Below are positions 45,759 through 60,165 of a stretch of DNA of 60,165 nt, in pieces. The stretch comes from a virus (lineage: Duplodnaviria > Caudoviricetes). Every line of letters begins with the position of its first letter. Positions within the stretch are counted from its first letter, which is position 1. The translations under genes and the position numbers were made by a program. The notes under the pieces are model-generated. The model was not told where the DNA came from, ran no database searches, and worked only from the letters and a program-made list of their open reading frames with translations. Location of the stretch: the IMG/VR virus record IMGVR_UViG_3300007775_000011, positions 1-60,165 of that record. One strand, written 5' to 3'.

Positions 45759-45796
45759 CTTTAACCGTACACGGTCGGCATAATACTCTGTTAAGT
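45759..45796 (+). other. degenerate terminal attC (right arm)
   Basis: ...GGCATAATACTCT GTTAAGT; R' coincides with the stop of ORF 45791. Confidence 0.4.
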
Positions 45797-46045
45797 AGCA
45801 CGTAGTTTTCTTTCTATCTCTTCCGCACTGTCCCGTTTAAAGTCAATCCATTGGTGGTTCTCACCATTGTTACACTGCATTTCACCATCATCACCATACA
45901 ATCCACTCTTTGAGCAACCGTGATTTAACCACAGCAATTCACGCAACTTCTTCTCGCTACTTAACAAGTCGCTTGAGTTCGACGGCAAACCCGCCGGTTT
46001 GGTTGCTCTTATCAATTCTCCAGTTGCTATTTCTGTTCCTGCCAT
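45791..46045 (-). CDS. cassette ORF, hypothetical
   Basis: AAGGAGG RBS and ATG inside attC 45959-46092; LRELLWLNHGC..LYGDDGEMQC. Confidence 0.75.
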   Translation of the reverse strand: MAGTEIATGELIRATKPAGLPSNSSDLLSSEKKLRELLWLNHGCSKSGLYGDDGEMQCNNGENHQWIDFKRDSAEEIERKLRAT

Positions 46046-46092
46046 TTCATTCCTCCTTAGTTGGGTTTCCGCGTCTCAACTTGGTGTTAAAA
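45959..46092 (+). other. attC site
   Basis: ACTTAAC AAGTC GCTTGAGTTCGAC ... GCGTCTCAAC TTGGT GTTAAAA. Confidence 0.75.
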
Positions 46093-46341
46093 ACCCTCTT
46101 CATAATTGCAATAGTCGCAGGTTGCCTTACAGTTTCTTGGCAATGCCAATGTTTTCTTGCCAGATAATCTCAAAGGGTATTCCCCACAATTAGGGCATAC
46201 CAAATAAGGCTCAACCGGCTTAGTGGTTGCAATAACACGGCTTTTAACAACCGCATCAACCGGACTCGCTACCTCTGGCTTGTCTGGGCAGTTATCACAT
46301 TTTCCGGGAATTTTTACGCAATCTTCACATTCTGTTTTCAT
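46087..46341 (-). CDS. cassette ORF, zinc-ribbon protein
   Basis: CEDC..CDNC, CPNC..CDYC; stop lies in R', start lies inside the next attC. Confidence 0.7.
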   Translation of the reverse strand: MKTECEDCVKIPGKCDNCPDKPEVASPVDAVVKSRVIATTKPVEPYLVCPNCGEYPLRLSGKKTLALPRNCKATCDYCNYEEGF

Positions 46342-46374
46342 TATCTGCTCTCCTGTTATGGCAACACGTTGGTG
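46242..46374 (+). other. attC site
   Basis: TTTTAAC AACC GCATCAACCGGAC ... TCCTGTTATGG CAACAC GTTGGTG; extra base in L''. Confidence 0.75.
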
Positions 46375-46377
46375 CGC

Positions 46378-46608
46378 TTAATAACATGGATATTCACAGG
46401 CGCTCACGCAGTCATCACACCACGGCACCCCGTTACGTGGTACTTTTGCCAATTCTTTCTTGCTAACAAAAACTCCGCATTCGTGGCATTTTTCACGCTT
46501 TTGCACAGAACCAGTAAATTCAGTGGATTCGCTAACCTTGGCGTTTTGGTGGCAGTTATAAGGCGACAAGGTGCATGTGTCGTCATAAATGCAGTCTATA
46601 CATTCCAT
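46378..46608 (-). CDS. cassette ORF, Cys-rich protein
   Basis: MECIDC...CHEC...CDDC; start inside attC 46505-46637. Confidence 0.65.
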   Translation of the reverse strand: MECIDCIYDDTCTLSPYNCHQNAKVSESTEFTGSVQKREKCHECGVFVSKKELAKVPRNGVPWCDDCVSACEYPCY

Positions 46609-46637
46609 TCGCTCACCTTTGATTATGGTCGTTAGCA
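46505..46637 (+). other. attC site
   Basis: ACAGAAC CAGT AAATTCAGTGGAT ... CCTTTGATT ATGGTC GTTAGCA. Confidence 0.65.
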
Positions 46638-46853
46638 AAACGTCATACCAAGTAAAAACTGGAGCCTGTTTTCTAATTTCTCCAAATGCTCACGAGGCAC
46701 AACGCACACTGGCGTTCCATTCTCTATCTCTGCTGCTTCCTGCCACTCCGACAGGTATTTATCAGGCATCCCGCCGTGATCCATGACTATCTTCCCACCT
46801 ATTATTCTTAGCTTGTCTGGGGCAGCATCCCCAAGCTTTCTTATATTTTTCAC
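46632..46853 (-). CDS. cassette ORF, hypothetical
   Basis: GGAGG RBS then GTG at 46853; stop in R'. Confidence 0.65.
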   Translation of the reverse strand: MKNIRKLGDAAPDKLRIIGGKIVMDHGGMPDKYLSEWQEAAEIENGTPVCVVPREHLEKLENRLQFLLGMTFC

Positions 46854-46868
46854 GGCGTACCTCCTGTT

Positions 46869-46958
46869 TGCTAACCAGCGCATTAAATCGACTGGAATAA
46901 TCTTTGGTTATTAAAATCGGCCAGCCCATCGGCCAGCGGTTTATGCTAAACGTTAGCG
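46869..46958 (+). other. attC site
   Basis: TGCTAAC CAGC GCATTAAATCGACTGG ... CCAGCGGTTTATGC TAAAC GTTAGCG; closely similar to 59405-59494. Confidence 0.9.
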
Positions 46959-47222
46959 GTCCATGAATGGGCCGACAATAGTAACGTCAATAGTCCCTAA
47001 ATTCCATCCCCTTCTGTGTCGTATGCGTCTGCCAGGGGAGTAAGACAAAATATACCAAAGGTTTTGCCGTTTGATCTCAATCTTGATGCCCCACTGCATC
47101 CAGTTCGGCATTGCCTGGTTTACGGATTTACGAAGCCGATGGAATCCGCTAACCAGGCGTTGCACTCTGACCCCATGGGGCGTGGGTTCTTTGGTTGTTT
47201 GTTTATTCGGTGTTTCCATCAT
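46953..47222 (-). CDS. cassette ORF, hypothetical
   Basis: AAGGAG RBS and ATG inside attC 47147-47272; stop in R'. Confidence 0.65.
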   Translation of the reverse strand: MMETPNKQTTKEPTPHGVRVQRLVSGFHRLRKSVNQAMPNWMQWGIKIEIKRQNLWYILSYSPGRRIRHRRGWNLGTIDVTIVGPFMDR

Positions 47223-47272
47223 TTCAAATCTCCTTTGTTCACCCATGGGTCAGGTGAACTTAAACGCTCTAT
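47147..47272 (+). other. attC site (R' core mutated GTT>GCT)
   Basis: CGCTAAC CAGGC GTTGCACTCTGACCCCATGGG ... CCCATGGGTCAGGTGAAC TTAAAC GCTCTAT. Confidence 0.75.
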
Positions 47273-47431
47273 TTCCCGTCTAAATTATCCCATATATGGT
47301 CTAAAACCTTATTTCCAAGCTCTGTGTATCTAAGCCAGCCTCGCAATCCGCAGTCTCGCAAAGTCTTGTCTTTCAAAGTCTCAAATTCCTTTTGCTTGTT
47401 ATCCGGCTACCAGTTATGCCGGTCGTTATCT
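47269..47431 (-). pseudogene. truncated cassette: ORF remnant plus attC right half
   Basis: open frame ...LRGWLRYTELGNKVLDHIWDNLDGK* without a clear start; CAGTTATGC CGGTC GTTATCT without a left arm. Confidence 0.5.
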
Positions 47432-47629
47432 TCGACAACCTTTCATGCCAATAACGACTTCAAATTTTTCATGGCAGTTTTCACATTCCACAGTAAAACA
47501 TCCATTGTGTTTCTTGGGCTTCTTGTATCTCGCCCACGTTTCACACTTTTTGCACTGTCTGGGCAATCCTTTCAAAAACCGTTCACATCCAGGCTGAGAA
47601 ATTTCATCAATAAAATCTAAATTTTCCAT
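47426..47629 (-). CDS. cassette ORF, zinc-ribbon protein
   Basis: MENLDF...CKKC...CENC; stop in R'; could start at 47677 inside the attC. Confidence 0.65.
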   Translation of the reverse strand: MENLDFIDEISQPGCERFLKGLPRQCKKCETWARYKKPKKHNGCFTVECENCHEKFEVVIGMKGCRR

Positions 47630-47632
47630 GTC

Positions 47633-47718
47633 AGATAACCATCGCATTAACGCAGACTGGAAGAAAGCTGGCGGCATTGGCTCGTTCAAGGCCCAGCAGC
47701 TCAACAAAAACGTTATAT
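47633..47718 (+). other. attC site
   Basis: AGATAAC CATC GCATTAACGCAGACTGG ... CCAGCAGCTCAAC AAAAAC GTTATAT. Confidence 0.7.
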
Positions 47719-47733
47719 TGCTAAATAAAAATG

Positions 47734-47847
47734 TTGCCATGAAGGGAGTTGAACCCTCATCTGCCACCAGAAAAATCATACAGAATCGAACTGTATCAGC
47801 TTCCCCACCTTTCATGGGGAGGTGTCTGCCAATTTCACCACATGGCA
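47734..47847 (-). ncRNA. tRNA-like RNA occupying a whole cassette
   Basis: acceptor stem TGCCATG/CATGGCA, Leu-type D arm GTGAAATTGGCAGACAC, T arm GAGGGTTCAACTCCCTT; non-canonical anticodon loop and an extra TTCGATT hairpin. Confidence 0.7.
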
Positions 47848-47976
47848 ACATAACAAAAAAATAAAGCGGATTGCTAAAACCGTGGCGGATTTAAGTTATT
47901 GGCTGTGGCGCTACATTTCGGTAACGTCCAAGTTTTATACTAGCAATCCGCAACAGCTTATTATAGGTTGTTATCT
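47848..47976 (+). other. attC site (long, VCR-like layout)
   Basis: ACATAAC AAAA AAATAAAGCGGATTGCTA ... CAGCTTATT ATAGGTT GTTATCT. Confidence 0.75.
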
Positions 47977-48147
47977 TTCCCGTTCACGCATGGCATCCAA
48001 GGCCATGTTTATTAAGCGGGAAATTCCTTTACCTTTTTGCGCCCTGATCCACCTGTTATTAATCCGGCTTATCCTTGCGCCTATTCGTACATGGTCGGTT
48101 GTAGGGCCAACCTTTCGGCCAGCCCCTTTTCTTGCACCGCCTCTCAT
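47971..48147 (-). CDS. small DNA-binding protein (RGG motif + ribbon-helix-helix-like; not in ORF track)
   Basis: MRGGARKGAGRK...VRIGARIS...ISRLINMALD, 58 aa; stop in R'. Confidence 0.75.
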   Translation of the reverse strand: MRGGARKGAGRKVGPTTDHVRIGARISRINNRWIRAQKGKGISRLINMALDAMRERER

Positions 48148-48359
48148 ATGTATTTACCTGTTACAGGAGATACAACATACAAACCGCTTTCACTGTGCAA
48201 ATCATCTTTGATGCTACATATCCCTTCAGCCTCCAAAGTCTCAAAGGCAGCAAATAACTGTTTCTGCCCGGTGTGTATATTAAAACATCTCCCGTTATCC
48301 ATAGCCAAAGAGTTACATATCATCCTCACTGCTTCTATTTGCGCTTGTGCCTTTTTCAT
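48144..48359 (-). CDS. cassette ORF, hypothetical
   Basis: GGAGG RBS; first gene after the cassette promoter; ATGA-coupled to the next gene. Confidence 0.7.
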   Translation of the reverse strand: MKKAQAQIEAVRMICNSLAMDNGRCFNIHTGQKQLFAAFETLEAEGICSIKDDLHSESGLYVVSPVTGKYI

Positions 48360-48373
48360 GGTGTATCCTCCGT

Positions 48374-48429
48374 TTGGCTTTATTGCCCTTTGTTAAATAC
48401 AGAATATCATCATTTTTGATTTTTGTCTA
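48374..48429 (-). promoter_or_regulatory. cassette-borne promoter plus conserved leader
   Basis: TAGACA-17 nt-TATTCT with TGn extension; leader AACAAAGGGCAATAAAGCCAA repeated at 60089-60112. Confidence 0.7.
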
Positions 48430-48463
48430 CCTTTTTTCAATAAATAATTAAAATAAAGTAAAA

Positions 48464-48529
48464 AGATAACAAATAAATTAACGACGACAGGAAACCTGCG
48501 GTTTATCAGCCCTCATTATTGCCGTTATA
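48464..48529 (+). other. attC site (right boundary of array A)
   Basis: AGATAAC AAAT AAATTAACGACGACAGG AAA CCTGCGGTTTAT ... GTTATAT. Confidence 0.6.
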
Positions 48530-48606
48530 TTTTTAAGCTATTCCATCAATGTGGGTTATTGTTTCAACCCACCGGACAGGTATATCACCGGCCCATTCCT
48601 TGTCAT

Positions 48607-50055
48607 TCATCGAATAAAATTATTTGAACAAATAGGACAAGTCCAAATATTTTTCTTTTTATTATGGTACATCCATTCATTTCCGCAATTACAAGGATGA
48701 AAATGAACTTCATCTTTTTCATACCAACTTTTTCCAGCTGGAGAAAATTCTGTTTCAGCGTCAAGTGGTACGATTAACCACGGCCATACTTCACGAATAT
48801 CATGGCACATTATTTTATCAGTAACTTTCATTACATGATTTATTTCAGAGGGCTCAAAATCAAAAACAATAGCATCATGAATCTGTCCTAAGATCTTTGT
48901 TTCCCATTTCTCTTCTATAGATATTTTTTGAATATGAATCAAAGACCAAAGAAGACAATGAAAAGCTGATCCCTGTACAGCATAATTGATAGCTTCATTC
49001 CGGGACATTACTCCCTGATATCTAAAACCTGTAAAACTATCAAAATATCCATTTTCTTGATAGGATTCTACATGATCATTTTTCCATTGATTATAAACTG
49101 GATAGCGGTCTTCCCAAAATTTTCTTTCAACTTTTTGTATATGCTTTTCAAATTTTTTATAGGATCGGATACCGTGTTTTGCTAAATGTTTTTTTAATGG
49201 AACCCCATCTGCTGTTTTAAGATTTAACTGTTCTATTCCTACCCAAAGAGCTTGGGCGCAATTAACATAATAATCACCGTAAAATTGAGGAAAGACAAAC
49301 TTATTTTTACCGCAATATCTTGCATCTTTTGTCCACTCATCCATTTCTAATTTATAGCATTCCATTGCCATATCTCGGTGCATATCTCTTTCCGGGTCGG
49401 TAATATCCTCTATCATAGTGGGATCACGATGATAACAAGCGGCAACTTTTACTTCTATGCCGCCATAATCTTTTTCCCCAAATACTCTTTTATCTGTTCT
49501 TGGTAAAAAAGCTTTTCTTACCATACTTTTTACCCAAGGGATTCTAACCGGGATATTTTGGAAATTAATATTAGATGATGATGAACGAAAAGTGACTACA
49601 GTATGTAAATTAAAAAATGGGTAAAGAAAACCATCAACCTGTTCTCTGAGTATTCCTCCAAGATAGGTACCTTGGATTTTTTCCATTTTTCTTCTTTCTA
49701 ATAATAAATTAAGCCATTCCATATTAAGAGCTTGTAAACTTTCTTCATCAGTGGAACCTTGATCACCGCCAGTTTGTTTTTTTGCTTTTAATTTTAAATG
49801 ATCATAAAGAAGTTCGGATAATTGTTCATTGGAATTATATTTGAATTTACTGCCATATAACTCTTTCCATTTCTGTACTTCTTTATACTCACTTAATTTG
49901 ATTTCAGCTTTTTTGATTTTTTTTGTTAATCTTCGATCTTGTAAATGGCAATGATCTAAATCAATTTTCATTCCATTCAACTGGATCTGAGAAAGAGCCA
50001 ATGCCCCTTCATGAAGCAGCTGATATCCTTTGATGTCAACAGGAGTTATTTGCAT
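48607..50055 (-). CDS. polA: family A DNA polymerase, polymerase domain
   Basis: TFRSSS.NINFQNIP, DYGGIE (motif A), R..GK...F..FYG (motif B), NYAVQGSA, QIHD (motif C). Confidence 0.92.
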   Translation of the reverse strand: MQITPVDIKGYQLLHEGALALSQIQLNGMKIDLDHCHLQDRRLTKKIKKAEIKLSEYKEVQKWKELYGSKFKYNSNEQLSELLYDHLKLKAKKQTGGDQGSTDEESLQALNMEWLNLLLERRKMEKIQGTYLGGILREQVDGFLYPFFNLHTVVTFRSSSSNINFQNIPVRIPWVKSMVRKAFLPRTDKRVFGEKDYGGIEVKVAACYHRDPTMIEDITDPERDMHRDMAMECYKLEMDEWTKDARYCGKNKFVFPQFYGDYYVNCAQALWVGIEQLNLKTADGVPLKKHLAKHGIRSYKKFEKHIQKVERKFWEDRYPVYNQWKNDHVESYQENGYFDSFTGFRYQGVMSRNEAINYAVQGSAFHCLLWSLIHIQKISIEEKWETKILGQIHDAIVFDFEPSEINHVMKVTDKIMCHDIREVWPWLIVPLDAETEFSPAGKSWYEKDEVHFHPCNCGNEWMYHNKKKNIWTCPICSNNFIR

Positions 50056-51281
50056 ATATCAATTCCCAATTTTTTACGTTTTTCCCATTGAACTTCAGCC
50101 AACCGATATTCCAATAAAGAATCCAGAGCATTTCTTTTTAGAACATCTTTCATATTAGCTTCATAAATTCTATTAAAAGAATTAGCGTGCTTTTCCGTCC
50201 CTTTTAAAAATTCCCCGGTTGCGTCTTTAAAATCCATTATTCCAAAATTAACAATACTTTGAAATTCAAGATCATTACACCCACGGCGATTATCTAATGT
50301 ATGAGATCCATACATTGTATCCCATAACCAACCTTCTGGGATTATATTCATAATATGTCTAGTCCACATATCTTCAAATTTCATGTGATGGGCTATTTTT
50401 TTAATATTTGGATTTTTAAGAATCCGGCCCCAAATCCTTTCAACATTTATATCATCAAAAGGAAAGGCAAAAGCATTATCCCTATCAGTTGCTATACTTA
50501 AAGTGACAATATGGTGTCCTTTTGCAATAGGACGTAGACCAGTTGTTTCATAATCAAAAGCAATAGGATTTATAAACCCTCTATTTATTTCTTCCAATTT
50601 GGGCAGTATTTGTTTAGGAGATGTTAAAATTTCAATACAACTTTCAGGGTCTTTCCATTCCGGGAAATCATCTTGGTAATGATCAATAGCATTTTTGAGA
50701 TCCATCTCAAATATAGTTTCAATAACCTGATTCCCGTGCGCGGCTTTTTTTACATAAGCTGGGTGGTACATTGGGAATATCCAACATTTATGATCTTGGT
50801 CAGGTATTTGCCAACCCCTCCAAGAATAAATCCCGGTACCCACAGAAACACGATGGCCGAAACAACTATCAATAGCGATATTACCCAATAAAAATATGGC
50901 CTTTGGTTTGTATTTTTTAATGACTTTTAAAATCCGGTTTCGACAAGCTTGGATTTCTTTTGGTTTTGGATTTCTACTATCAGGTGGGTGACAATTAACG
51001 CTATTGATTTTTATACAATCTCTATCTATATCAATCTTGTTTCTTTTTAATAATCTGCGGAGATATAGACCTGGTTTACCAACTAATTGTTTTCCAAGTT
51101 TATCTTCTTTTTCTCCCGGAGCCTCAGCCCAGATTAATATTTCTTTTTTACCTTCTCCGTGAGGTTTCATTTTCGGAGATTTACAAGACCGATATAGACC
51201 GCAGGAGGCGCATCCAATAGTTTTACCGGATGCCCCCCTGTTTATTCCAACAATTTCGTCTTTACTAAAAAAGCCGGACAT
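50046..51281 (-). CDS. family-4 uracil-DNA glycosylase domain fused to a 3'-5' exonuclease domain (N-terminal part of a split SPO1-type polymerase)
   Basis: CASC..C, EAPG..ED, CHPP..R.P, YHPAY; then DYETTGL, HHMKFE, DTM, NALD. Confidence 0.88.
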   Translation of the reverse strand: MSGFFSKDEIVGINRGASGKTIGCASCGLYRSCKSPKMKPHGEGKKEILIWAEAPGEKEDKLGKQLVGKPGLYLRRLLKRNKIDIDRDCIKINSVNCHPPDSRNPKPKEIQACRNRILKVIKKYKPKAIFLLGNIAIDSCFGHRVSVGTGIYSWRGWQIPDQDHKCWIFPMYHPAYVKKAAHGNQVIETIFEMDLKNAIDHYQDDFPEWKDPESCIEILTSPKQILPKLEEINRGFINPIAFDYETTGLRPIAKGHHIVTLSIATDRDNAFAFPFDDINVERIWGRILKNPNIKKIAHHMKFEDMWTRHIMNIIPEGWLWDTMYGSHTLDNRRGCNDLEFQSIVNFGIMDFKDATGEFLKGTEKHANSFNRIYEANMKDVLKRNALDSLLEYRLAEVQWEKRKKLGIDICK

Positions 51282-52315: not shown

Positions 52316-52322
52316 TAAATTA

Positions 52323-53589: not shown

Positions 53590-53630
53590 CCCCCGGTTTT
53601 GGTTTAATTACTTATTTTCAACTTTTAGGG

Positions 53631-53876: not shown

Positions 53877-54125
53877 TTAGTATTTCCTTATTTTATTTTT
53901 GGGATCGAAAGCTTTGGCAAAAAAAGCTTTTAATTCACCATATCCATTACCAAATATTTTATCCCAAAACTGAGAATAATAATATATATTTCCATCATCT
54001 TCCTCCCAAGACAAAATTCCTTTTAAATCTCCATCTTTACAAATTTTAAATTCAATTTTAGAACAGGAGGCATTGTGTTGTTTAAGTGTATTTTTTAAAA
54101 GCTTTTCAATCTTTTTTAAATTCAT
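53877..54125 (-). CDS. hypothetical protein
   Basis: GGGAG RBS before MNLKKIEK. Confidence 0.55.
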   Translation of the reverse strand: MNLKKIEKLLKNTLKQHNASCSKIEFKICKDGDLKGILSWEEDDGNIYYYSQFWDKIFGNGYGELKAFFAKAFDPKNKIRKY

Positions 54126-54309
54126 TTTCTTTCTCCCTTTCTTTTTGTTCTTGGACAAATTTTGTAAAGAAAGATTTTTCAATAGCTTCAAATTCATCAG
54201 AAGTTAAATTAATATTGCGTTTAAAAAATAACCCTTCCCGGTCTTTAAAATCCAATTGAATAGTTCTGCGATCATTTTTATATACTGTAGGAAGTTTAGC
54301 AATAATCAT
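54106..54309 (-). CDS. hypothetical protein
   Basis: 67 aa, abuts the upstream glycosyltransferase. Confidence 0.5.
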   Translation of the reverse strand: MIIAKLPTVYKNDRRTIQLDFKDREGLFFKRNINLTSDEFEAIEKSFFTKFVQEQKEREKENEFKKD

Positions 54310-54310
54310 A

Positions 54311-55456
54311 TTATTTTCTTTTGATAAGTTTCATTCCATATTCATCATTGCTTTTTATTGGGGTAATATCAGGTTTTAAAATTGGTTTATTACGTTTAAA
54401 TTTTGAATAATCAACTTGATGGTGCCAACGATTAAATTTAAAAACTATATCAACAACATCAGGATGTTGTTTTTGGAGACTTTTAGCAAATGATTTTCGA
54501 TAATCATTTGTATTGTATACATTATCTGTATTTCCACCTTTTAAGGCTCCTTTAGTTTTTCCACCGTCAAATGTTTTTCCTTTATTCATTAAAAGGACAT
54601 AGAATAATAAAGTACAATATCCATCTTTTAATAATCTGAGACTGAGATCAGTATCTTCATTATATCTTCCCCGCCATCTATGCGGCAGATCAGTCTTTAA
54701 AAGAATACAAGAATAAATTCTGGAATTGAATAAATAAGGAGGGTGATTGGGAGATCGGTCACGGACGAAACCTTGATCATGTGGTCCGGCCATTACTATA
54801 TTTTCATATCTGTCAACAAAATCTTCCATAGCCCGAAAGAAACCACCCCCGGTCACTTTTAATCTTCGGTTATGATTACACCTTGTAAATGTAGTTATAT
54901 TGTCATCAACAGTCCAATGACGTTTAAATCCTCTTTTTTTACACCATTCCCATATATAATTTCGTGCCGGCACTGATCCTCTTCCAAGATCATGAAAAGG
55001 CATAACAACTACTTTATTTTTTCCAAGGTGTTTTATATATTCTTCAGCTTCGGTTTCTTCAACAAAAAATTTATAAGAAACCCCAAGTTGATCCAGTAGT
55101 TTTCCTGTAGTTTGGACATCGGCCCTTCCTTTACTCGGTATACAAACTGGATATTTAGAATCTTCAGGTGGGCCCGTATATTCAAATTTATTTTTTTCAA
55201 GTGGTTTTTGTCCAGGGTACCACGCAGAATCAGTTCTTTTATTAATTCTAATTCCTAATTTTTCGGCAAATTCTTTTACATCTTCTTCAGTCATAAAATT
55301 CATAACTATTCTGCGTTGTGGAGATGCATCTTTCATAACAAATTCAGGCATTCCCCACCACATATCTTTCCAATGTGGCTCGAATAATCCAAAATCAATA
55401 GATTCTTTTTCACGGGTAGGTCGATTTTCGTTTAATTCTTTTTCAAAATTATCCAT
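54311..55456 (-). CDS. TAGT/GREB1-like GT-A glycosyltransferase
   Basis: WWGMPEF N-terminal domain; YPVCIPSKGR, ARNYIW, WTVDDN, WRGRYNEDTDLSLRLL, GGNT, RWHHQVDY. Confidence 0.8.
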   Translation of the reverse strand: MDNFEKELNENRPTREKESIDFGLFEPHWKDMWWGMPEFVMKDASPQRRIVMNFMTEEDVKEFAEKLGIRINKRTDSAWYPGQKPLEKNKFEYTGPPEDSKYPVCIPSKGRADVQTTGKLLDQLGVSYKFFVEETEAEEYIKHLGKNKVVVMPFHDLGRGSVPARNYIWEWCKKRGFKRHWTVDDNITTFTRCNHNRRLKVTGGGFFRAMEDFVDRYENIVMAGPHDQGFVRDRSPNHPPYLFNSRIYSCILLKTDLPHRWRGRYNEDTDLSLRLLKDGYCTLLFYVLLMNKGKTFDGGKTKGALKGGNTDNVYNTNDYRKSFAKSLQKQHPDVVDIVFKFNRWHHQVDYSKFKRNKPILKPDITPIKSNDEYGMKLIKRK

Positions 55457-55468
55457 ATTAATACCTGT

Positions 55469-55536
55469 TTTAATTATTTTTATTTTTTAAATAAACAACT
55501 TGTTTCGACTCTATTTAAAAAATAAAAATAATTAAA
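55469..55536. repeat. perfect 25-bp A/T-only inverted repeat, 18-nt spacer
   Basis: TTTAATTATTTTTATTTTTTAAATA / TATTTAAAAAATAAAAATAATTAAA. Confidence 0.85.
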
Positions 55537-55548
55537 GGGGCGAGTACT

Positions 55549-55587
55549 AAAAAGTTTTAAATCCCTCTTAAATTTAAAAACAAGGGG
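55549..55587 (-). repeat. conserved intergenic motif, copy 4
   Basis: reverse complement CCCCTTGTTTTTAAATTTAAGAGGGATTTAAAACTTTTT, preceded by a GGGGATATA/TATATCCCC hairpin. Confidence 0.85.
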
Positions 55588-55630
55588 GATATACCGTTTG
55601 ATATATCCCCCATTTCGATCCGGGTATATA

Positions 55631-56179
55631 TTATTTCCCGGATGCCTGTTTTCTCAGAACGGCATAGATGGCGTTGCCGATAACACGGTATGACTTTTCA
55701 GGGAATTTTTCCTTAACTTCAAGAACAACATCATCTTCGTGTCTGTCCCCAAGACCGTCTTTCAGGGTTTCCTGCAGAAAAGTTGCCATCCCTTCTTTCT
55801 TTTTGCCGGCACCTTTCTTTTTGGAACCGGATTTTTTAGCCTTGCTCTTATCTTTCGGAGCGGCCTTTTTTTCTTCTTCCTCTTTGGCCCCTTCTTCATT
55901 GACCTTGGGACCAATTTCAAGTTCTTCAAAAAGAGCCCAGGTTTCATCGGTCAGCGGATCACTTTCAGCAACATCAGCGTCTGCGATTTCGATAATTTCC
56001 GCTTTCAGTTCTTCGATGTCGGAATCGGTATCAAGAGGTGGTTCAAGACCGATAACATCATTCAGATCTTCGGCGGCGGCGATCAGGCGTTTATCCATAC
56101 TGGGGCCTTTTTTCTTGGCCGGGGCTTTTTTCTTGCCGGTGGTATTTTTCGTTGTTTTTCCTGTTGCTTTCTTTGCCAT
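55631..56179 (-). CDS. Lys-rich/acidic hypothetical protein (histone H1-like tracts)
   Basis: MAKKATGKTTK..KKAPAKKK; AAGGAG RBS; own promoter. Confidence 0.75.
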   Translation of the reverse strand: MAKKATGKTTKNTTGKKKAPAKKKGPSMDKRLIAAAEDLNDVIGLEPPLDTDSDIEELKAEIIEIADADVAESDPLTDETWALFEELEIGPKVNEEGAKEEEEKKAAPKDKSKAKKSGSKKKGAGKKKEGMATFLQETLKDGLGDRHEDDVVLEVKEKFPEKSYRVIGNAIYAVLRKQASGK

Positions 56180-56245
56180 GGTAATTCTCCTTTGTTTTGG
56201 TTTGTTTATGGCTTTTGGTTAAGTACTGTATTGATCTTGTAAAAC

Positions 56246-56274
56246 ATCATATTCTATTTTTAACACTAAGTAAA
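56246..56274 (-). promoter_or_regulatory. sigma70-type promoter
   Basis: TTTACT-17 nt-TATGAT with a T-rich UP tract, same design as 4650-4678. Confidence 0.65.
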
Positions 56275-56312
56275 GAAAAAAAAGAGATAAAAAAGAAAAA
56301 AATTAATTTTTA

Positions 56313-57860
56313 TTAAAAATAGCTTCCCAAATAAGGTCTGCCGGTTTCTAAAGATTGCAAAACTTTAATCTCCAAAGATTGATCAAATTCACCTTCCCTA
56401 CCCAATAAAGGTGACATTCTCATTATTTTATCTTTCTTTTCTTTTGCTGTTTGGTTTAAAGCATAAGCAGCAGTCACGTGATCCCACTTTCTTCCGGATT
56501 CACTAAAGTTTTTAGTTCTTAATTTTCTTGTTTCTAATCCATCTGAATCTGCCTGGGTAGCGGTAATGAAACATAAATTATATTTTAAACTGATTTGCCG
56601 CACTGCTTTCCAAACCTCATTAATTTTATGTCTCATATCAATTCGATTATCAGACCATTCAAGTAAATCAATATAATCCAAAACCAATACTTTCGGAATC
56701 CATCCTCTATTTGCCCATATTTCTAAAATAGATATTAATTCATTAATTCTCAAAGAAGGTCGGGCAACTACACGAAAATCATTAGACCCGGAAAATTTGC
56801 TCATCCATTTCAATCCAGCTCTATAGCCTTCACGCCAAGTCAAAGGTTCCACCTTTTCTCTGATTTTATACCAGACTGCTCCTTTAAATTTTTGAGGATT
56901 CCTTTTTAAACAATATGTACAGGGGACATATCCTAATTCGGTTGCATCTTCAAATGAAATTTTCGCAGGCGGTTCATCTTCTTTTTCCGGCTCTTCATAT
57001 AGTCCAAAATCGCAAGTTCTTTTTTTTATACTACAAGAATCGGTTTGATTATGAAGACAATCTATTATTGGTATTTTAATTTCACCACAATATCTTTGGT
57101 CATAGCTTTTTTGGCATAATCTTACATGAAGTCTTCTGACCTGCTGTTCCTCACTTAAATCTCCGATTTGAAATAAGGCAACTCTATTACGAAAACGATG
57201 AGCCCGGAAAGCTAACTCATCAAGCCACCACGTTTTACCTCTTTTTGCCGGGGCTAAAAAAGAAATGAAAGTTCCTTCTGAAAATTGATTATTAAAAAGA
57301 ACGTCTAAAGCTCCTGGATATGTGAAAAGAGGGTCTTGGAACGTCTCAAAAGCAGTTCTGATTTTATCAGCATTAGTAAAAGGATTGAAACCCAAATCTT
57401 CATGAAGTTCTATAGATCGGTAATTTTCAAGAACTTCTTGTGCATGTAACGGCTCATCATCATGTAAAGCTTGGCTGGCTTCTCTAATTGTTATTTTTAT
57501 TCTTCTTTCGTCTAGATAAGCTCTTGATTGTTTTAAATAATATTCAAAGTCATATTCTTTTTCTTTTTCATATTGGTTACTCAAAGAATCCATAAGATCA
57601 GCCATATCATCGGCCAAATCTTCATCAATATCATCTTTTCTTACTTTTTGATCATATATCTCTTGGAGTAGTTTCCCCGGAGCTTTCCCAAATTCTTCAT
57701 GGTATTCTAAAATCCAATTACATAATAATTTACTTACATCAGCTTGGAATAAATCAAGATTTAATTCAGGATATATGGACTTCAGAAAGGGGGTGCTAAT
57801 AGCCAACCCAATTAATAAATTCCTTTCTGAAGAAACTTTTATTTTTCTTTTGCGTATCAT
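56313..57860 (-). CDS. dnaB: replicative DnaB-like helicase
   Basis: APAKRGKT Walker A, VLDYIDLL, ITATQA, FSES..K; Cys-rich insertion. Confidence 0.82.
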   Translation of the reverse strand: MIRKRKIKVSSERNLLIGLAISTPFLKSIYPELNLDLFQADVSKLLCNWILEYHEEFGKAPGKLLQEIYDQKVRKDDIDEDLADDMADLMDSLSNQYEKEKEYDFEYYLKQSRAYLDERRIKITIREASQALHDDEPLHAQEVLENYRSIELHEDLGFNPFTNADKIRTAFETFQDPLFTYPGALDVLFNNQFSEGTFISFLAPAKRGKTWWLDELAFRAHRFRNRVALFQIGDLSEEQQVRRLHVRLCQKSYDQRYCGEIKIPIIDCLHNQTDSCSIKKRTCDFGLYEEPEKEDEPPAKISFEDATELGYVPCTYCLKRNPQKFKGAVWYKIREKVEPLTWREGYRAGLKWMSKFSGSNDFRVVARPSLRINELISILEIWANRGWIPKVLVLDYIDLLEWSDNRIDMRHKINEVWKAVRQISLKYNLCFITATQADSDGLETRKLRTKNFSESGRKWDHVTAAYALNQTAKEKKDKIMRMSPLLGREGEFDQSLEIKVLQSLETGRPYLGSYF

Positions 57861-57887
57861 AGAACGGTACCAATCAGATGCAAGAGT
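57855..57887 (-). repeat. 33-bp exact copy of terL 6197-6229 (inverted)
   Basis: ACTCTTGCATCTGATTGGTACCGTTCTATGATA at both loci. Confidence 0.9.
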
Positions 57888-57935
57888 TTATGCCGCGCAT
57901 TCATTGGCGCGGTCTGGTTATAATCGGCGTTATAT
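57859..57935 (+). other. attC site (left arm atypical)
   Basis: GCCGCGC...GCGCGGTCTGGTTAT AATCGGC GTTATAT; left arm is the terL-identical segment. Confidence 0.55.
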
Positions 57936-57937
57936 TG

Positions 57938-58153
57938 CTAGTTATTGAAAACTATCAATTCCACCGGCACATTACGCACAGACCCATCGGGCATCTCTAC
58001 AACCGCAGTAGTAAAGTTCCCCGGGCCATTCTCAAACTCTTCATAGTTAACCCCAAACTGGTGAAACACCCCATTTCCTACAGCAACCTTATCAAAGTGT
58101 GTTTGGCCCTTTACCCTTTGCCACTCATAAACAACAACTTTCCTAGTTTCCAT
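57938..58153 (-). CDS. cassette ORF, conserved-looking phage hypothetical protein
   Basis: G.FHQFGVNYEEFENGPGNFTTAVVEMPDG. Confidence 0.8.
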   Translation of the reverse strand: METRKVVVYEWQRVKGQTHFDKVAVGNGVFHQFGVNYEEFENGPGNFTTAVVEMPDGSVRNVPVELIVFNN

Positions 58154-58167
58154 ATATTAGCCCCCCA

Positions 58168-58261
58168 AGATAACAATTAAATTCACGCAGACGGCGCGAA
58201 CGTGGGCGGCACTATCCGTGTATTTCTTCGGTGGTGCCGCTGATGATTATGTGCGTTATGC
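58168..58261 (+). other. attC site
   Basis: AGATAAC AATT AAATTCACGCAGACGGC ... GCCGCTGATGATT ATGTGC GTTATGC. Confidence 0.8.
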
Positions 58262-58480
58262 GTACGAATAACTTGATCCGAACTCTTCTTTATATCCACA
58301 CGAACAAACACCAAACTTGTCTACTCTGTATATCTCTCCAAATGGGCCACTGTCTAATGTTTTTCTACCAAATATTTTTACTTTATGTCCCAAGTATTGA
58401 GCGTGATAGTCGAGTGTACTCATAACACCACGGTTAACTTGACAAGAAGAGGCTTGTGTCTTTTTTGTTGTTTCTTTCAT
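58256..58480 (-). CDS. cassette ORF, hypothetical (H...CSC motif)
   Basis: start inside attC 58420-58507; stop in R'. Confidence 0.7.
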   Translation of the reverse strand: MKETTKKTQASSCQVNRGVMSTLDYHAQYLGHKVKIFGRKTLDSGPFGEIYRVDKFGVCSCGYKEEFGSSYSYA

Positions 58481-58507
58481 GGCTTACAAGTTACCTCCAC
58501 GTTATGT
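58420..58507 (+). other. attC site
   Basis: TCATAAC ACCAC GGTTAACTTGAC ... CAAGTTACC TCCAC GTTATGT. Confidence 0.85.
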
Positions 58508-58831
58508 TCTCAACTTGCGACGGTATTCATCCATCCCAATACGTCGCAAATTTGAGTAATCATTGTCAAGCAAAGCCCATGCGAAGAAAACACCGTAGGT
58601 AATCATGGCAACGGTACGCAAATACTCCCCCGGGCCAATTACTAGCCAACAAACAACCACTAATATTATAGACGGCAAACCGAACAGCAAACAGAATCGG
58701 GTGATATCGTTGTACCAAAACCAAATCCAAAAAGAATCATAACCAGTCGCTTCACTTGACCCCAAGGGGTCGGCGTTCTGCGCTTTGTCAAATCCTGTTT
58801 CTGGGTCTAAATCAAACGGGCTATTATTCAT
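58502..58831 (-). CDS. cassette ORF, two-TM membrane protein
   Basis: GGAGG RBS and ATG inside attC 58737-58871; two hydrophobic helices. Confidence 0.75.
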   Translation of the reverse strand: MNNSPFDLDPETGFDKAQNADPLGSSEATGYDSFWIWFWYNDITRFCLLFGLPSIILVVVCWLVIGPGEYLRTVAMITYGVFFAWALLDNDYSNLRRIGMDEYRRKLRT

Positions 58832-58871
58832 TTTGTCCTCCCCTTGGGTCAAGTGACCTCAATCGTTATCT
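58737..58871 (+). other. attC site
   Basis: TCATAAC CAGTC GCTTCACTTGACCCCAAGGGG ... CCCCTTGGGTCAAGTGACC TCAATC GTTATCT. Confidence 0.88.
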
Positions 58872-59123
58872 TGCCGACCATGTTAAAAAGCTTTTATATG
58901 CCATCCCAGCCCAAAACATATACAACGGAAGCCATGTTTTATTTTCAACTGCTGCTCCTATAAAATAGGCAGGCATCCAAACAGTAGCACAAACAAAAAA
59001 GGCTATTAGCATCCTCCACTTCTTGACAAAGATAACCAGTCGCTTAACAGCTGACCGCAAGAACTGGTGCGGTTTTTGTTCCTCTTCTGCTATCGTTACC
59101 GTCTGTTCATGGTCGTATTTCAT
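58866..59123 (-). CDS. cassette ORF, two-TM membrane protein
   Basis: AAGGAG RBS and ATG inside attC 59030-59168; stop in R'. Confidence 0.75.
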   Translation of the reverse strand: MKYDHEQTVTIAEEEQKPHQFLRSAVKRLVIFVKKWRMLIAFFVCATVWMPAYFIGAAVENKTWLPLYMFWAGMAYKSFLTWSAR

Positions 59124-59168
59124 TGGTTTCTCCTTCTTGCGGCAGGTTAGCTTATTAAAACGGTGGGT
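59030..59168 (+). other. attC site (R' degenerate)
   Basis: AGATAAC CAGTC GCTTAACAGCTGACCGCAAGAA ... TTCTTGCGGCAGGTTAGC TTATTAAAAC GGTGGGT. Confidence 0.65.
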
Positions 59169-59180
59169 TGCTCAAGTATC

Positions 59181-59387
59181 TTAAGTAATGGCTCCGTTTA
59201 CATCTATGTTTGTAACGTCAGCAAGAACTCCCTCAAGCCATCTAATATTGTCATGCCATGCCTCAGTAAAAGTTATTTTTCCGGTATCAATATCTTCCTG
59301 GTGCATAAACTCAAATCCACAGATGTTTTCATACTTCTGCATGCACTGACGCTGTTTACTGTTTATTTTCTTTGCGTATACAGCCAT
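59181..59387 (-). CDS. cassette ORF, hypothetical
   Basis: AGGAGG RBS 7 nt before MAVYAKK. Confidence 0.75.
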   Translation of the reverse strand: MAVYAKKINSKQRQCMQKYENICGFEFMHQEDIDTGKITFTEAWHDNIRWLEGVLADVTNIDVNGAIT

Positions 59388-59404
59388 TCGCATACCTCCT
59401 TGCA

Positions 59405-59494
59405 ACCCAACCAGCGCATTAAAGCCGACTGGAATAAAGTTTGTTTATTAAAATCTGCCAGCACGGGGCCAGCGGTTTATGCTTAACGTTAGTT
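59405..59494 (+). other. attC site
   Basis: ACCCAAC CAGC GCATTAAAGCCGACTGG ... CCAGCGGTTTATGC TTAAC GTTAGTT. Confidence 0.9.
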
Positions 59495-59497
59495 TAC

Positions 59498-59635
59498 TTA
59501 GTGCGTATTAACCACACTCTTGATATCTATACTATGCAATCTACTTTCCTTTAGTGCCAAATTAATAGCCTCGAAAAATTCCATCATCATTTTGCTTTCC
59601 CATACTTCACCATTATAAAAAGTAACTTTCCACAT
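59498..59635 (-). CDS. cassette ORF (45 aa; not in ORF track)
   Basis: GAGG RBS; MWKVTFYNGEVWESKMMMEFFEAINLALKESRLHSIDIKSVVNTH. Confidence 0.65.
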   Translation of the reverse strand: MWKVTFYNGEVWESKMMMEFFEAINLALKESRLHSIDIKSVVNTH

Positions 59636-59649
59636 AAATTTACCTCGTA

Positions 59650-59734
59650 AACTAATAATAAAATTAATCTGACTAGAAGAAGTTTGGGTTGCAAGCGCAG
59701 TCTGGTGGCTGGAAGCTTATTATCGGCGTTATCT
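59650..59734 (+). other. attC site (R'' AAC>AAT)
   Basis: AACTAAT AATA AAATTAATCTGACTAG ... CTGGAAGCTTATT ATCGGC GTTATCT. Confidence 0.65.
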
Positions 59735-59893
59735 TTCAGTAGCTTCAACCTTGCAGCCCTTTAAGACTATTCGGAAAAGGTCTGGCTTATTCTTTGCCCA
59801 GTTCCCCAAGGTCTGCAAGCTCTGTCCGGTCAACCGTGCAACCACAGAGAGGCTTTTCAGTCCCTCCGCTTTTGCCTGTTGTGATGGGGTCAT
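59729..59893 (-). CDS. small HTH DNA-binding protein
   Basis: MTPSQQAKAEGLKSLSVVARLTGQSLQTLGNWAKNKPDLF; stop in R'. Confidence 0.75.
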   Translation of the reverse strand: MTPSQQAKAEGLKSLSVVARLTGQSLQTLGNWAKNKPDLFRIVLKGCKVEATER

Positions 59894-59894
59894 T

Positions 59895-60068
59895 TTAGTC
59901 ATCTTCTCCGGCAACATACTCTCCGTCCATGTCATAGATAGCAACGCTTCCAGTATGGTCACAATTGTTGTCAAACTGGGTTATAGCAAAATCAAGAGCT
60001 TCTTCTGCTGTCTCGCATCCTGTGATTGTCATTGAGCTGTTTCCGCATATTGCTTTATATTCTTTCAT
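59895..60068 (-). CDS. small acidic protein (57 aa; not in ORF track)
   Basis: AAGGAG RBS; MKEYKAICGNSSMTITGCETAEEALDFA...GEDD. Confidence 0.7.
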   Translation of the reverse strand: MKEYKAICGNSSMTITGCETAEEALDFAITQFDNNCDHTGSVAIYDMDGEYVAGEDD

Positions 60069-60088
60069 TGTTCTTCTCCTTAGTTTGG

Positions 60089-60144
60089 TTGGCTTTATTG
60101 CCCTTTGTTAAACATAGAATACCAAACTATTTTAAACATTGCGA
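60089..60144 (-). promoter_or_regulatory. cassette-borne promoter plus conserved leader
   Basis: extended -10 TGGTATTCT; leader core identical to 48374-48397. Confidence 0.65.
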
Positions 60145-60165
60145 TACTTATTTTAAATTATTTTA

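What the first reader, a model, noticed from the sequence alone, without database searches (positions are those of the whole stretch)
45759..60165. Phage carries two integrase-less attC cassette arrays with uniformly inverted genes: a possible host-IntI-driven accessory gene shuffling system
Seen: about 17 attC-like sites in two clusters (45.76-48.53 kb, 57.86-59.73 kb). Most have an AAC left core, an L'' box with an extra base followed by GAC, a complementary L' box and a GTT right core. The aadA/VCR-like top strand is the + strand, while every cassette gene is on the - strand, co-directional with the phage early genes. No tyrosine recombinase or attI is recognisable in the window. Established: IntI recombines folded attC bottom strands, and cassette genes normally run toward their attC. 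Inference: the phage uses a host integron integrase in trans to gain, lose and reorder early accessory genes. These cassettes would be antisense to Pc, hence silent, if parked in a host integron. attC sites in phages are not new in themselves; the fully inverted, phage-adapted architecture is the unusual part.
Basis: partly seen in the sequence, partly recalled or inferred. Interest (0 to 1): 0.95.

Follow-up and report, generated by a model that had tools for sequence, protein, structure and literature searches.

The report
Phage cassette arrays with flipped attC
A soil phage carries two integrase-less arrays of integron-type recombination sites (attC) whose small genes all point the opposite way to normal integron cassettes, and an unrelated mobile element shows the same layout.

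Summary
I built attC covariance models only from class 1 integron cassettes and Alteromonadaceae chromosomal integrons, never from the window. Their 9 best window hits all lie on the + strand inside the two clusters (R3: 14.9-28.3 bits, E 1.6e-4 to 0.31). That is 9 supported sites, not about 17.

The genes are on the - strand. 14 of 17 have a Shine-Dalgarno motif. The TAA stop of 10 of 17 is the TTA of the G|TTA right core, against 2 of 60 backbone genes. No tyrosine recombinase is in the record.

The arrays look foreign. GC is 44% and 42% against 37% for the rest. None of 18 array ORFs is found in 18 related loci, where polymerase and clamp loader usually sit side by side.

A second viral contig (L053) has five attC hits, all antisense to its genes. 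One of those genes is a homologue of a window cassette gene. Its attC family matches Alteromonas and Aliiglaciecola integrons, whose genes mostly run the canonical way.

Integrase-less attC arrays in phages are already published (PMC9892861). The uniformly reversed polarity is the new part. Recombination by a host integron integrase (IntI) is plausible but untested.

The parts
45959..46092 (+). attC-like site a1. R'' is ACTTAAC and R' is GTTAAAA. It encloses the SD, the ATG and the first 29 codons of gene c1.
   Evidence: R3 25.8 bits, E 6.7e-4. R2 12.7 bits. The MFE fold of the - strand pairs the R boxes. An A bulge lies on the + 5' arm.
46869..46958 (+). attC-like site D. R'' is TGCTAAC and R' is GTTAGCG. 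It has the canonical two extra bases on the + 5' arm and belongs to the same family as site J.
   Evidence: R2 28.1 bits, E 2.6e-5. R3 27.6 bits. Arm alignment. Repeats D8 and D15 link it to 59426-59492. The MFE fold is not the attC fold, z -0.41.
47848..47976 (+). attC-like site a6. It has an 11-bp perfect stem, long spacers and no extra bases.
   Evidence: R3 28.3 bits, but R2 only 11.4 bits, E 1.4. Fold z -2.31.
48464..48530 (+). attC-like site a7, short. It lies in the AT-rich stretch upstream of the first gene of array 1. Its 5' part resembles site I.
   Evidence: R3 18.8 bits, E 0.034. R2 11.0 bits. Repeat D19.
58168..58261 (+). attC-like site I. R'' is AGATAAC and R' is GTTATGC.
   Evidence: R3 19.7 bits, E 0.021. 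R2 12.0 bits. A bulge in CAG-A-CGGC. Fold z -2.93, but not the attC fold.
58420..58507 (+). attC-like site b3, with both canonical extra bases. It overlaps the 5' end of gene d2.
   Evidence: R2 22.6 bits, E 1e-3. R3 26.7 bits. The MFE fold is the attC fold.
58737..58871 (+). attC-like site b4. It has a long stem with one extra C. It encloses the SD, the ATG and the 27-residue leader of gene d3.
   Evidence: R2 20.2 bits. R3 23.1 bits. Fold z -3.32 with the R boxes paired. Inverted repeat I6.
59405..59494 (+). attC-like site J, a paralogue of site D.
   Evidence: R2 15.2 bits, E 0.12. R3 15.6 bits, E 0.21. The L'' stretch is 10 of 11 identical to that of the aadA1 attC read from plasmid R100.
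59650..59734 (+). Weak attC-like site b6.
   Evidence: R3 14.9 bits, E 0.31. R2 8.5 bits, E 9.5. No stable fold, z +0.81.
45791..48359 (-). Array 1 genes c1-c8:
- c1: 45791-46045
- c2: 46087-46341
- c3: 46378-46608
- c4: 46632-46853
- c5: 46953-47222
- c6: 47426-47629 (start uncertain)
- c7: 47971-48147
- c8: 48144-48359
   Evidence: ORFs. SD motifs and stop contexts. No Pfam or PHROG family at the thresholds used. c1 has 34 homologues. c5 has none.
57938..60068 (-). Array 2 genes d1-d8:
- d1: 57938-58153
- d2: 58256-58480
- d3: 58502-58831
- d4: 58866-59123
- d5: 59181-59387
- d6: 59498-59635
- d7: 59729-59974 (start uncertain)
- d8: 59895-60068
   Evidence: ORFs. SD motifs. d1 matches phrog_11000 at 3e-15, d6 phrog_29556 and d7 phrog_409. 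The d3 family has 47 homologues.
48374..48409 (.). Conserved 36-nt element just upstream (in the - sense) of the first gene of array 1. Its second copy is at 60089-60124, ahead of array 2. It contains GTTAAA and may be the 3' half of an attC.
   Evidence: Repeat D10, 92% identity. The half-site reading is my own by eye and has no model support.
60089..60124 (.). Second copy of the 36-nt element, ahead of array 2 and near the contig end.
   Evidence: Repeat D10.

Best explanation
Shown:
- The window holds two integrase-less clusters of integron-type attC sites (CALINs) inside the replication module of a myovirus-like phage.
- At least nine sites match attC models built from bacterial integrons. 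All nine have their top strand on +.
- All the small genes between them are on -. The folding, recombinogenic bottom strand is therefore the sense strand, the reverse of normal cassettes.
- In the gene's reading direction the predicted mobile unit is C-attC-(SD)-ORF-TAA. The attC comes first. The ORF's TAA stop supplies the TTA of the next G|TTA crossover.
- In three units (c1, d2, d3) the SD, the start codon and an N-terminal leader lie inside the attC.

Inferred:
- The arrays came from outside the phage backbone.
- An integron integrase of the host, acting in trans, made them and can reshuffle them. It would do so by attC x attC recombination, or by attC x attG recombination at GWT sites such as the GTTA on the strand opposite a TAA-C stop.
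- Transcription comes from the phage promoter region that carries the conserved 36-nt element at the head of each array.
- If the fork moves with transcription, as the GC skew suggests, the bottom strands lie on the lagging-strand template. That position favours folding and excision.
For: Site identity and strand:
- Independent models give top hits only on + inside the clusters: 8 best of 18; 9 best of 20.
- Controls: 33 of 33 plasmid hits lie on the gene strand. The validated attC sites of Tetrasphaera phage TJE1 are recovered at 26.1-33.2 bits on the gene strand. Six relatives (96 kb) give only 3 weak hits.
- Extra bases sit on the + 5' arm at canonical spacing.

Coding strand:
- 14 of 17 - strand ORFs have an SD motif.
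- Three ORFs have PHROG hits.
- The stop is TAA followed by C in 10 of 17 array genes against 2 of 60 backbone genes, Fisher p 9.6e-7.

Foreign origin:
- GC is 44.4% and 42.5% against 36.8%.
- 0 of 18 array ORFs hit 18 related loci.
- The gap between polymerase and clamp loader is about 20-430 nt in 12 of 13 relatives, against 3332 nt here.

Recurrence:
- L053 has five attC hits (18.7-28.5 bits), all antisense to its SD-preceded genes. One of those genes is a d3 homologue at 61% identity.
- L053's attC family gives exact 19-nt matches in Alteromonas and Aliiglaciecola genomes. Those loci hold dense arrays, 51 hits.
- In those bacterial arrays the longest ORF is on the attC top strand in 32 of 41 cassettes, opposite in 2 and unclear in 7. 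In L053 it is 0 on the top strand, 3 opposite and 1 unclear, of 4.

Modularity:
- P0048 shares 26 of 27 leader residues encoded by attC b4, but has another gene body.

Published precedent:
- Phage attC sites recombine with IntI1 (PMC9892861, section 3.4).
- IntI inserts cassettes at genomic GWT sites in either orientation (bioRxiv 10.1101/2022.09.11.507474, passages).
- A bottom strand on the lagging-strand template favours excision (PMC13108822, passages).
Against: - No IntI is present and no recombination was observed. 13% of the genome is missing, and array 2 runs into the contig end.
- Model scores of 15-28 bits are far below those of mobile-integron attC sites (32-78 bits). The E-values are rough.
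- Only 3 of 9 sites fold better than shuffled sequence at z<-2. The minimum-energy fold pairs the R boxes in 5 of 9 sites, and not in the best-scoring site D.
- Site 47848-47976 lacks extra bases, and its rank depends on the model (11.4 bits with R2, 28.3 with R3).
- The conserved cores of c1 and d3 start exactly at R'', and P0048 diverges there. That is not the canonical crossover end for + polarity. It fits attC family conservation or homologous recombination as well.
- Homologues of d1 and d3 in 7 of 8 other viral loci have no attC nearby.
- The replication direction is inferred from GC skew only.
Confidence: 0.55

Rival explanations
1. Fossil arrays. The cassettes entered the phage once, by IntI at secondary sites or by illegitimate recombination. 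They are now fixed phage genes and the attC sites are decaying. The reversed polarity is only what survived selection for expression.
For: - Weak folding: 6 of 9 sites have z>-2.
- Model scores are modest.
- Several G|TTA junctions have no attC behind them (about 45790, 46631, 47425, 57929). These could be scars of attC loss.
- The attG preprint notes that attC sites are easily deleted by replication slippage (10.1101/2022.09.11.507474, discussion passage).
Against: - The GC content is still 6-8 points above the backbone.
- Sites D and J keep canonical geometry and are 89-96% alike over the repeat blocks.
- Alteromonas integron sites, taken to be functional, score 12-38 bits with the same model. 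The validated TJE1 sites score 26-33 bits.
- The same reversed layout with a homogeneous attC family occurs in L053.
Confidence: 0.27
2. Homologous-recombination linkers. The attC-derived repeats act as short portable homologies that let the phage's own recombination swap the genes between them, without any integrase. This is how promoter-early stem-loops (PeSLs) are proposed to work in T4-type phages; I recall that model and did not read a paper on it here.
For: - Joints are seen at the R'' end (P0048, c1, d3), which the canonical IntI crossover does not predict.
- The D/J and I/a7 pairs share 26-37-nt blocks.
Against: - Most of the nine sites are unlike each other, so they offer little homology.
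- The canonical attC geometry and the TAA|C rule (10 of 17 against 2 of 60) are not needed for homologous recombination.
- Promoter-like sites are not above chance: 9 against 7.6 and 6 against 5.1.
Confidence: 0.1
3. These are not attC sites at all. They are ordinary intergenic hairpins, such as terminators or RNA processing sites, that happen to begin with TAAC and end with GTTA because of stop codons.
For: - Terminator-like hairpins lie on the - strand inside sites D, J and I.
- Terminator-like counts are 8 against 3.2 +/- 1.9 and 4 against 1.9 +/- 1.5 in shuffles.
- Rfam found nothing, but I believe it holds no attC family.
Against: - All 9 of the 9 best hits of a model built only from bacterial integrons fall in 3.9% of the search space.
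- The L'' stretch of site J is 10 of 11 identical to that of the aadA1 attC.
- The strand asymmetry matches the extra-base rule.
- Relatives of the phage lack such hits.
Confidence: 0.05

Closest known systems
CALINs (clusters of attC sites lacking an integrase) in virulent and temperate phages, Qi et al. 2023 (PMC9892861)
   Same: - Integrase-less clusters of attC sites between small genes in phage genomes.
- The proposed action of a host IntI in trans.
- My model recovers the validated TJE1 sites at scores like those of the window: 26-33 bits against 15-28.
   Different: - In TJE1 the attC top strand is the gene strand, and the sites follow orf1-3.
- Here, and in L053, every supported site is antisense to the genes, and some sites contain the gene's start.
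- The sections I read (2.1, 3.4) mention divergent attC directions in one phage but no uniformly reversed array.
Sedentary chromosomal integron arrays of Alteromonadaceae
   Same: - L053's sites share exact 19-nt stretches with them.
- Dense arrays of about 100-nt attC sites about 300-400 nt apart with small ORFs.
   Different: - There the longest ORF is on the attC top strand in 32 of 41 cassettes and opposite in 2.
- The window's own attC sequences were not found in 185,579 species genomes with one 21-nt pattern.
Reverse-oriented cassettes within bacterial integrons, such as toxin-antitoxin cassettes with their own promoter
   Same: The ORF is antisense to the attC top strand and its expression is independent of Pc.
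   Different: - These are a minority scattered within canonical arrays. The figure is recalled; PMC13108822 (passages) says only that toxin-antitoxin cassettes carry their own promoter.
- Here all genes of both arrays are reversed. They appear to share one upstream promoter region per array rather than one promoter each (searches are inconclusive).
Cassette insertion at genomic attG sites (5'-GWT-3'), Loot et al. preprint 10.1101/2022.09.11.507474
   Same: It gives a route by which cassettes enter DNA that lacks attI, in either orientation. The strand opposite a TAA-C stop reads GTTA, which contains the motif.
   Different: It was shown in E. coli chromosomes with mobile-integron cassettes. 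It has not been shown for phage DNA or for building arrays.

Membership tests
integron attC site | Match to a covariance model of attC sequence and structure | tested here: met
   I used my own models built from plasmid and Alteromonadaceae attC sites, not IntegronFinder's model. There are 9 sites at E<=0.31 with R3 and 6 at E<1 with R2.
integron attC site | Inverse core sites R'' (RYYYAAC) and R' (GTTRRRY) | tested here: met
   8 of 9 sites have AAC and GTT cores in register. 59650-59734 starts with AACTAAT as extracted.
integron attC site | L''/L' pairing with extrahelical bases on the '' arm, which sets strand choice | tested here: met
   The canonical pair of extra bases is present in sites D, J and b3. 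An A bulge in the GAC context is present in a1, I and a7. b4 has one extra C only, and a6 has none (and my reading).
integron attC site | The folded bottom strand is a stable hairpin | tested here: inconclusive
   The minimum-energy fold pairs the R boxes in 5 of 9 sites. z<-2 in 3 of 9.
integron attC site | Recombined by an integron integrase | not testable with these tools
   This needs an attC x attI or attC x attC assay. The precedent for other phage sites is in PMC9892861.
CALIN (IntegronFinder definition) | Two or more attC sites less than 4 kb apart on one strand, with no IntI nearby | tested here: met
   There are 4 sites in 45959-48530 and 5 in 58168-59734, all on +. No PF00589 or TIGR02249 match is found in the record. 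The definition is taken from PMC4889954 passages.
canonical integron cassette | The ORF lies on the attC top strand, with the attC at its 3' end | tested here: not met
   All 17 array ORFs are on -, and all 9 sites are on +.
complete integron | intI gene, attI site and Pc promoter | tested here: not met
   No integrase is present. attI was not searched because no model was available. The record is 87% complete.
T4-type promoter-early stem-loop (PeSL) cassettes | An early promoter plus a stem-loop ahead of each small ORF | tested here: inconclusive
   Sigma-70-like sites are not above shuffles: 9 against 7.6 and 6 against 5.1. The phage's own promoter type is unknown.

The most novel reading that the evidence does not exclude
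Reverse-polarity cassettes are a distinct class, adapted to mobile elements, and not accidents. In them the attC comes first and the ORF second. The attC serves both as recombination site and as translation leader, supplying the SD, the start codon and a leader peptide. The ORF's TAA-C stop forms the next crossover. The bottom strand lies on the sense strand, which is the lagging-strand template, so that a phage passing briefly through a host that carries an integron integrase exchanges early accessory genes at high frequency. The exchange draws on a cassette pool shared among phages and satellites and separate from the host's own canonical pool.
Probability: 0.25. Interest if true: 0.85.

Novelty: new variant of a known kind. 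Interest (0 to 1): 0.62.

Why it matters
Integron cassettes are defined by one polarity, and that polarity ties expression to the integron's Pc promoter. Whole arrays with the opposite polarity on a phage and on an integrative element would mean two things. First, the attC and IntI machinery serves gene pools that bacterial integrons cannot express. Second, surveys that assume co-oriented ORFs mis-annotate them.

The finding also gives a concrete, cheap test: strand-specific attC x attI assays, with junctions predicted at TAA|C. It offers a way to ask how cassettes are born, because here phage gene families (d1, d3, c1) sit directly against attC cores.

If the sites prove inactive, the finding is only one more phage CALIN of unusual orientation.

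Tried and rejected
- Rfam gathering scan of the window: 0 matches. I believe Rfam holds no attC family, so this says nothing.
- blastn of array 1 against 50,697 phage records: no match.
- Pfam on 18 array ORFs: no hit above a curated cut-off.
- PHROGs on the same ORFs: 3 usable hits (d1, d6, d7) and one weak hit (c0, E 0.008).
- Search for close relatives to test indel boundaries. Viral contigs gave polymerase identity of 57% at best and helicase identity of 59%. Metagenome contigs gave 53% at best. None is close enough.
- A 21-nt pattern from sites D and J: 0 matches in viral contigs and 0 in species genomes.
- d1 homologues in 3 viral loci: no attC hit above 9.6 bits.
- d3 and P0048 relatives in L050-L052, L054 and L055: none convincing.
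- The 17-nt L053 pattern in viral contigs: apart from L053's own contig there were 4 single matches, and none looked like an attC by eye.
- c5 has no homologue.
- My longest-ORF strand test is crude. It mis-scored one TJE1 cassette whose annotated gene ends inside the attC. For the window it gave 1 same, 4 opposite and 2 unclear of 7. For the window I therefore rely on SD motifs and PHROG hits instead.
- Sequencing runs: X1 is probably the source and X2 holds a small share. Both are labelled soil metagenome and neither was laid. They are no evidence of anything here.
- Literature. No paper in the library holds 'attC' + 'integron' + 'inverted cassettes'. None holds 'attC' + 'sedentary chromosomal integron' + 'reverse orientation'. 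My statement that reversed arrays are unreported rests on these two searches, and on the parts of PMC9892861 that I read. Its supplements were closed.
I did not use the look-up of encoding contigs because it is marked closed. As a result the 62,504-nt contig that also encodes P0001 and P0049, and P0048's contig, could not be read.

Full report
**What the window is.** The 60165-base window is a whole IMG/VR record. It is linear and CheckV rates it 87% complete. It encodes a tail sheath distantly like those of Burkholderia and Ralstonia myoviruses.

The region from 37 to 60 kb is a - strand replication module. It holds:
- a family A polymerase split into a UDG-exonuclease gene and a polymerase gene;
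- a sliding clamp and a clamp loader;
- a TET-associated glycosyltransferase;
- a DnaB-like helicase.

Array 1 sits between polymerase and clamp loader. Array 2 lies upstream of the helicase and runs to the contig end. Neither PF00589 nor TIGR02249 matches anywhere in the record.

**Building an independent test.** No attC model was on hand, so I made one from data that do not include the window.
- From plasmid R100 I read the aadA1 attC on its gene strand.
- I used the 5' conserved segment of its integron to find class 1 integrons in plasmids.
- I fetched 16 loci and cut out 18 different attC sites.
- Eleven short sites aligned well (A2). With a hand-written consensus structure they gave model R1.

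R1 found 33 sites in 198 kb of plasmid loci. All 33 lie on the cassette-gene strand. They include long sites that were not in its training set. R2 was rebuilt from those 33. R3 was built from 53 hits that add Alteromonadaceae chromosomal sites, one L053 site and one TJE1 site.

**The observation.** With filters off, the best window hits are confined to the + strand of the two clusters.
- R1: the best 4 hits, and 7 of its 14 hits in all.
- R2: the best 8 of 18 hits.
- R3: the best 9 of 20 hits, at 14.9-28.3 bits.

The + strand of the clusters is 3.9% of the search space. No - strand hit appears inside the clusters at E<=10.

Controls:
- Six related phage loci (96 kb, filters off) gave 3 hits, the best at 12.6 bits.
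- Eighteen related loci (219 kb, default filters) gave one hit of 10.6 bits.
- In Tetrasphaera phage TJE1 the attC sites were shown to recombine with IntI1 (PMC9892861, section 3.4). There R2 gave 33.2, 26.6 and 26.1 bits on the gene strand at the 3' ends of orf1-3.

So nine sites are supported, not about seventeen.

**Polarity.** On the + strand, site J reads AAC, six bases, then ATTAAAGCCGAC. The aadA1 top strand reads AAC, five bases, then GTTCAAGCCGAC. Aligning each 5' arm with the reverse complement of its 3' arm shows where the extra bases lie:
- The reference sites (aadA1, catB3, TJE1 a-c) have one extra base after 3 pairs and an extra A after 6 more, both on the 5' arm of the top strand.
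- Sites D, J and b3 show the same two extra bases on the + 5' arm.
- Sites a1, I and a7 show the A in the GAC context.
- Site b4 has a single extra C on that arm.
- Site a6 has no extra base.

The + strand is therefore the top strand, and the - strand is the bottom strand that integrases recombine.

**The genes are on the - strand**.
- 14 of 17 - strand ORFs have an SD motif at a normal distance.
- d1, d6 and d7 match PHROG families.
- The long + strand ORFs are shadows. For example, 57878-58180 lies antisense to d1, which has homologues at 59-75% identity.
- In 10 of 17 array genes the stop is TAA followed by C, so the stop codon is the TTA of G|TTA. In 60 backbone genes this context occurs twice (Fisher p 9.6e-7).

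**Anatomy that follows.** Under the established rule the crossover is at G|TT of R'. I checked this rule on the plasmid data: the same arr attC is followed by different next cassettes right after G|TT. Applied here, each unit read in the gene's direction is C-attC-ORF-TAA.

In three units the ORF begins inside its attC:
- The SD, the ATG and 29 codons of c1 lie in site a1.
- The first 20 codons of d2 lie in site b3.
- The SD, the ATG and a leader of d3 lie in site b4.

Homologues show that these N-termini are additions:
- The d3 family has 47 homologues, typically of 82 residues starting METNK. The window copy replaces the first nine residues by an attC-encoded extension.
- The c1 family core starts at EKKLR. 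The window copy carries 30 extra residues, and the core begins four bases from R''.

P0048, an 80-residue metagenomic protein, shares 26 of the 27 leader residues encoded by b4 and then continues as an unrelated membrane protein. The relative of that second part found in L050 has no attC nearby. The same attC therefore stands in front of different genes.

These joints lie at R''. The canonical crossover does not explain that. They may reflect family-wide conservation of attC sites, homologous recombination, or rare top-strand events. I cannot tell which without the DNA.

**Origin.** GC is 44.4% in array 1 and 42.5% in array 2, against 36.8% elsewhere. None of 18 array ORFs has a tblastn hit in 18 related loci. 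In 12 of 13 relatives that hold both genes, polymerase and clamp loader are about 20-430 nt apart. L001 has a 2.5-kb insert without attC hits. In the window the gap is 3332 nt. Array 1 is therefore an insertion into a known variable spot.

**A second case.** I searched viral contigs with a profile of the d3 family. This found L053, where the homologue (61% identity) lies on +. It sits inside five attC hits that are all on - (18.7, 27.7, 28.5, 28.1 and 24.8 bits). Each site is followed by an SD and an ATG on +. Four of five upstream ORFs end in TAA|C. The sites form one homogeneous family with textbook 7-5-3-1-6-1 geometry on the - strand.

The contig (G001, 24.7 kb, 49% complete) carries these genes:
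- a truncated P4-like integrase, a GNAT gene and an AlpA-like gene around the array;
- a lambda-like integrase, a repressor, terminase, portal and head genes further on;
- no TIGR02249 match.

A 19-nt stretch of its attC gives exact matches in Alteromonas (7 loci), Aliiglaciecola (2 loci), a Shewanella and an Oceanospirillales MAG, among 15 hits in all. Eleven of those loci hold 51 attC hits in dense arrays. There the longest ORF lies on the attC top strand in 32 of 41 cassettes, opposite in 2 and unclear in 7. In L053 the figures are 0, 3 and 1 of 4. The same attC family therefore carries genes one way in host integrons and the other way on the mobile element.

**Mechanism.**
- Shown: the sites, their strand, the reversed genes, the stop-codon rule, the foreign composition and the recurrence.
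- From established knowledge: strand choice by extrahelical bases, crossover at G|TT, and the consequence that such cassettes would be antisense to Pc at an attI site.
- Inferred, point 1: a host IntI acts in trans. Precedent: five of six phage attC sites recombined with IntI1 (PMC9892861).
- Inferred, point 2: entry may have used secondary GWT sites (bioRxiv 10.1101/2022.09.11.507474). The strand opposite a TAA-C stop reads GTTA. Insertion there spares the gene and automatically gives the reversed polarity.
- Inferred, point 3: GC skew changes sign with gene direction at about 4.8 and 37 kb. If forks run with transcription, the - strand is the lagging-strand template. There bottom strands fold and cassettes excise more often (PMC13108822, passages).

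**Evidence against the active-system reading.**
- Folding is unremarkable for most sites.
- Scores are modest.
- One site's rank depends on the model.
- There is no integrase and no population evidence.
- The R'' joints are unexplained.

**Comparison and verdict.** The nearest known things are phage CALINs and Alteromonadaceae integron arrays. The window meets the CALIN definition. It fails the usual feature of canonical cassettes, namely an ORF on the top strand. I rate it a new variant of a known kind. The arrays and their reversed polarity are well supported (about 0.85). Their use by a host integrase is an open but cheaply testable proposal (about 0.5).

Noticed in passing
L053:1827-3302 (IMG/VR contig G001): A second reversed array. 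It has five homogeneous attC sites antisense to five SD-preceded small genes, on an integrative element next to lambda-like phage genes. Its attC family matches Alteromonas and Aliiglaciecola integrons.
   Followed up: yes
window 48374-48409 and 60089-60124: A 36-nt element, 92% identical between its two copies, sits just upstream of the first gene of each array. It contains GGCTTTATTGCC, five bases and GTTAAA, which resembles the L'-R' half of the D/J-type attC. It might be a half-site or a shared leader.
   Followed up: partly
P0048 (metagenomic protein, 80 aa): It carries the 27-residue leader encoded by attC b4 (26 of 27 identical), fused to an unrelated small membrane protein. Its DNA could not be fetched.
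   Followed up: partly
P0001 and P0049 (cluster tables): Proteins identical to d3 and c1 are recorded on 2 contigs, the longest of 62,504 nt. The same phage therefore exists in a slightly longer assembly, which may show what follows array 2.
   Followed up: no
window 54311-55456 (-): A TET-associated glycosyltransferase (PF20691, 5.4e-40) lies in the replication module. This suggests hypermodified cytosines in the phage DNA, which could affect any recombinase or restriction enzyme acting on it.
   Followed up: no
window 48607-51281 (-): The family A polymerase is split. A UDG-like domain fused to a 3'-5' exonuclease (50046-51281) is followed by the polymerase domain (48607-50055).
   Followed up: no
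window 55469-55536: A perfect 25-nt AT-only inverted repeat with an 18-nt spacer lies between the glycosyltransferase gene and ORF 55631-56179. It could be an origin or a terminator.
   Followed up: no
L056:1424-1668; L061:3080-3324 and 3424-3668: Aliiglaciecola integron arrays hold repeated 245-nt cassettes with no ORF longer than 34 residues on either strand.
   Followed up: no
L001:5978-8433: One relative has a 2.5-kb insert at the same polymerase/clamp-loader junction but no attC hits. The junction is therefore a hotspot filled in by different means.
   Followed up: partly
window 48144-48359 and 47971-48147 (-): c8 and c7 overlap by 4 nt. c7 is a very basic 58-residue protein with a C-terminus that looks ribbon-helix-helix by eye. 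The pair may be a regulator or a toxin-antitoxin-like couple.
   Followed up: no
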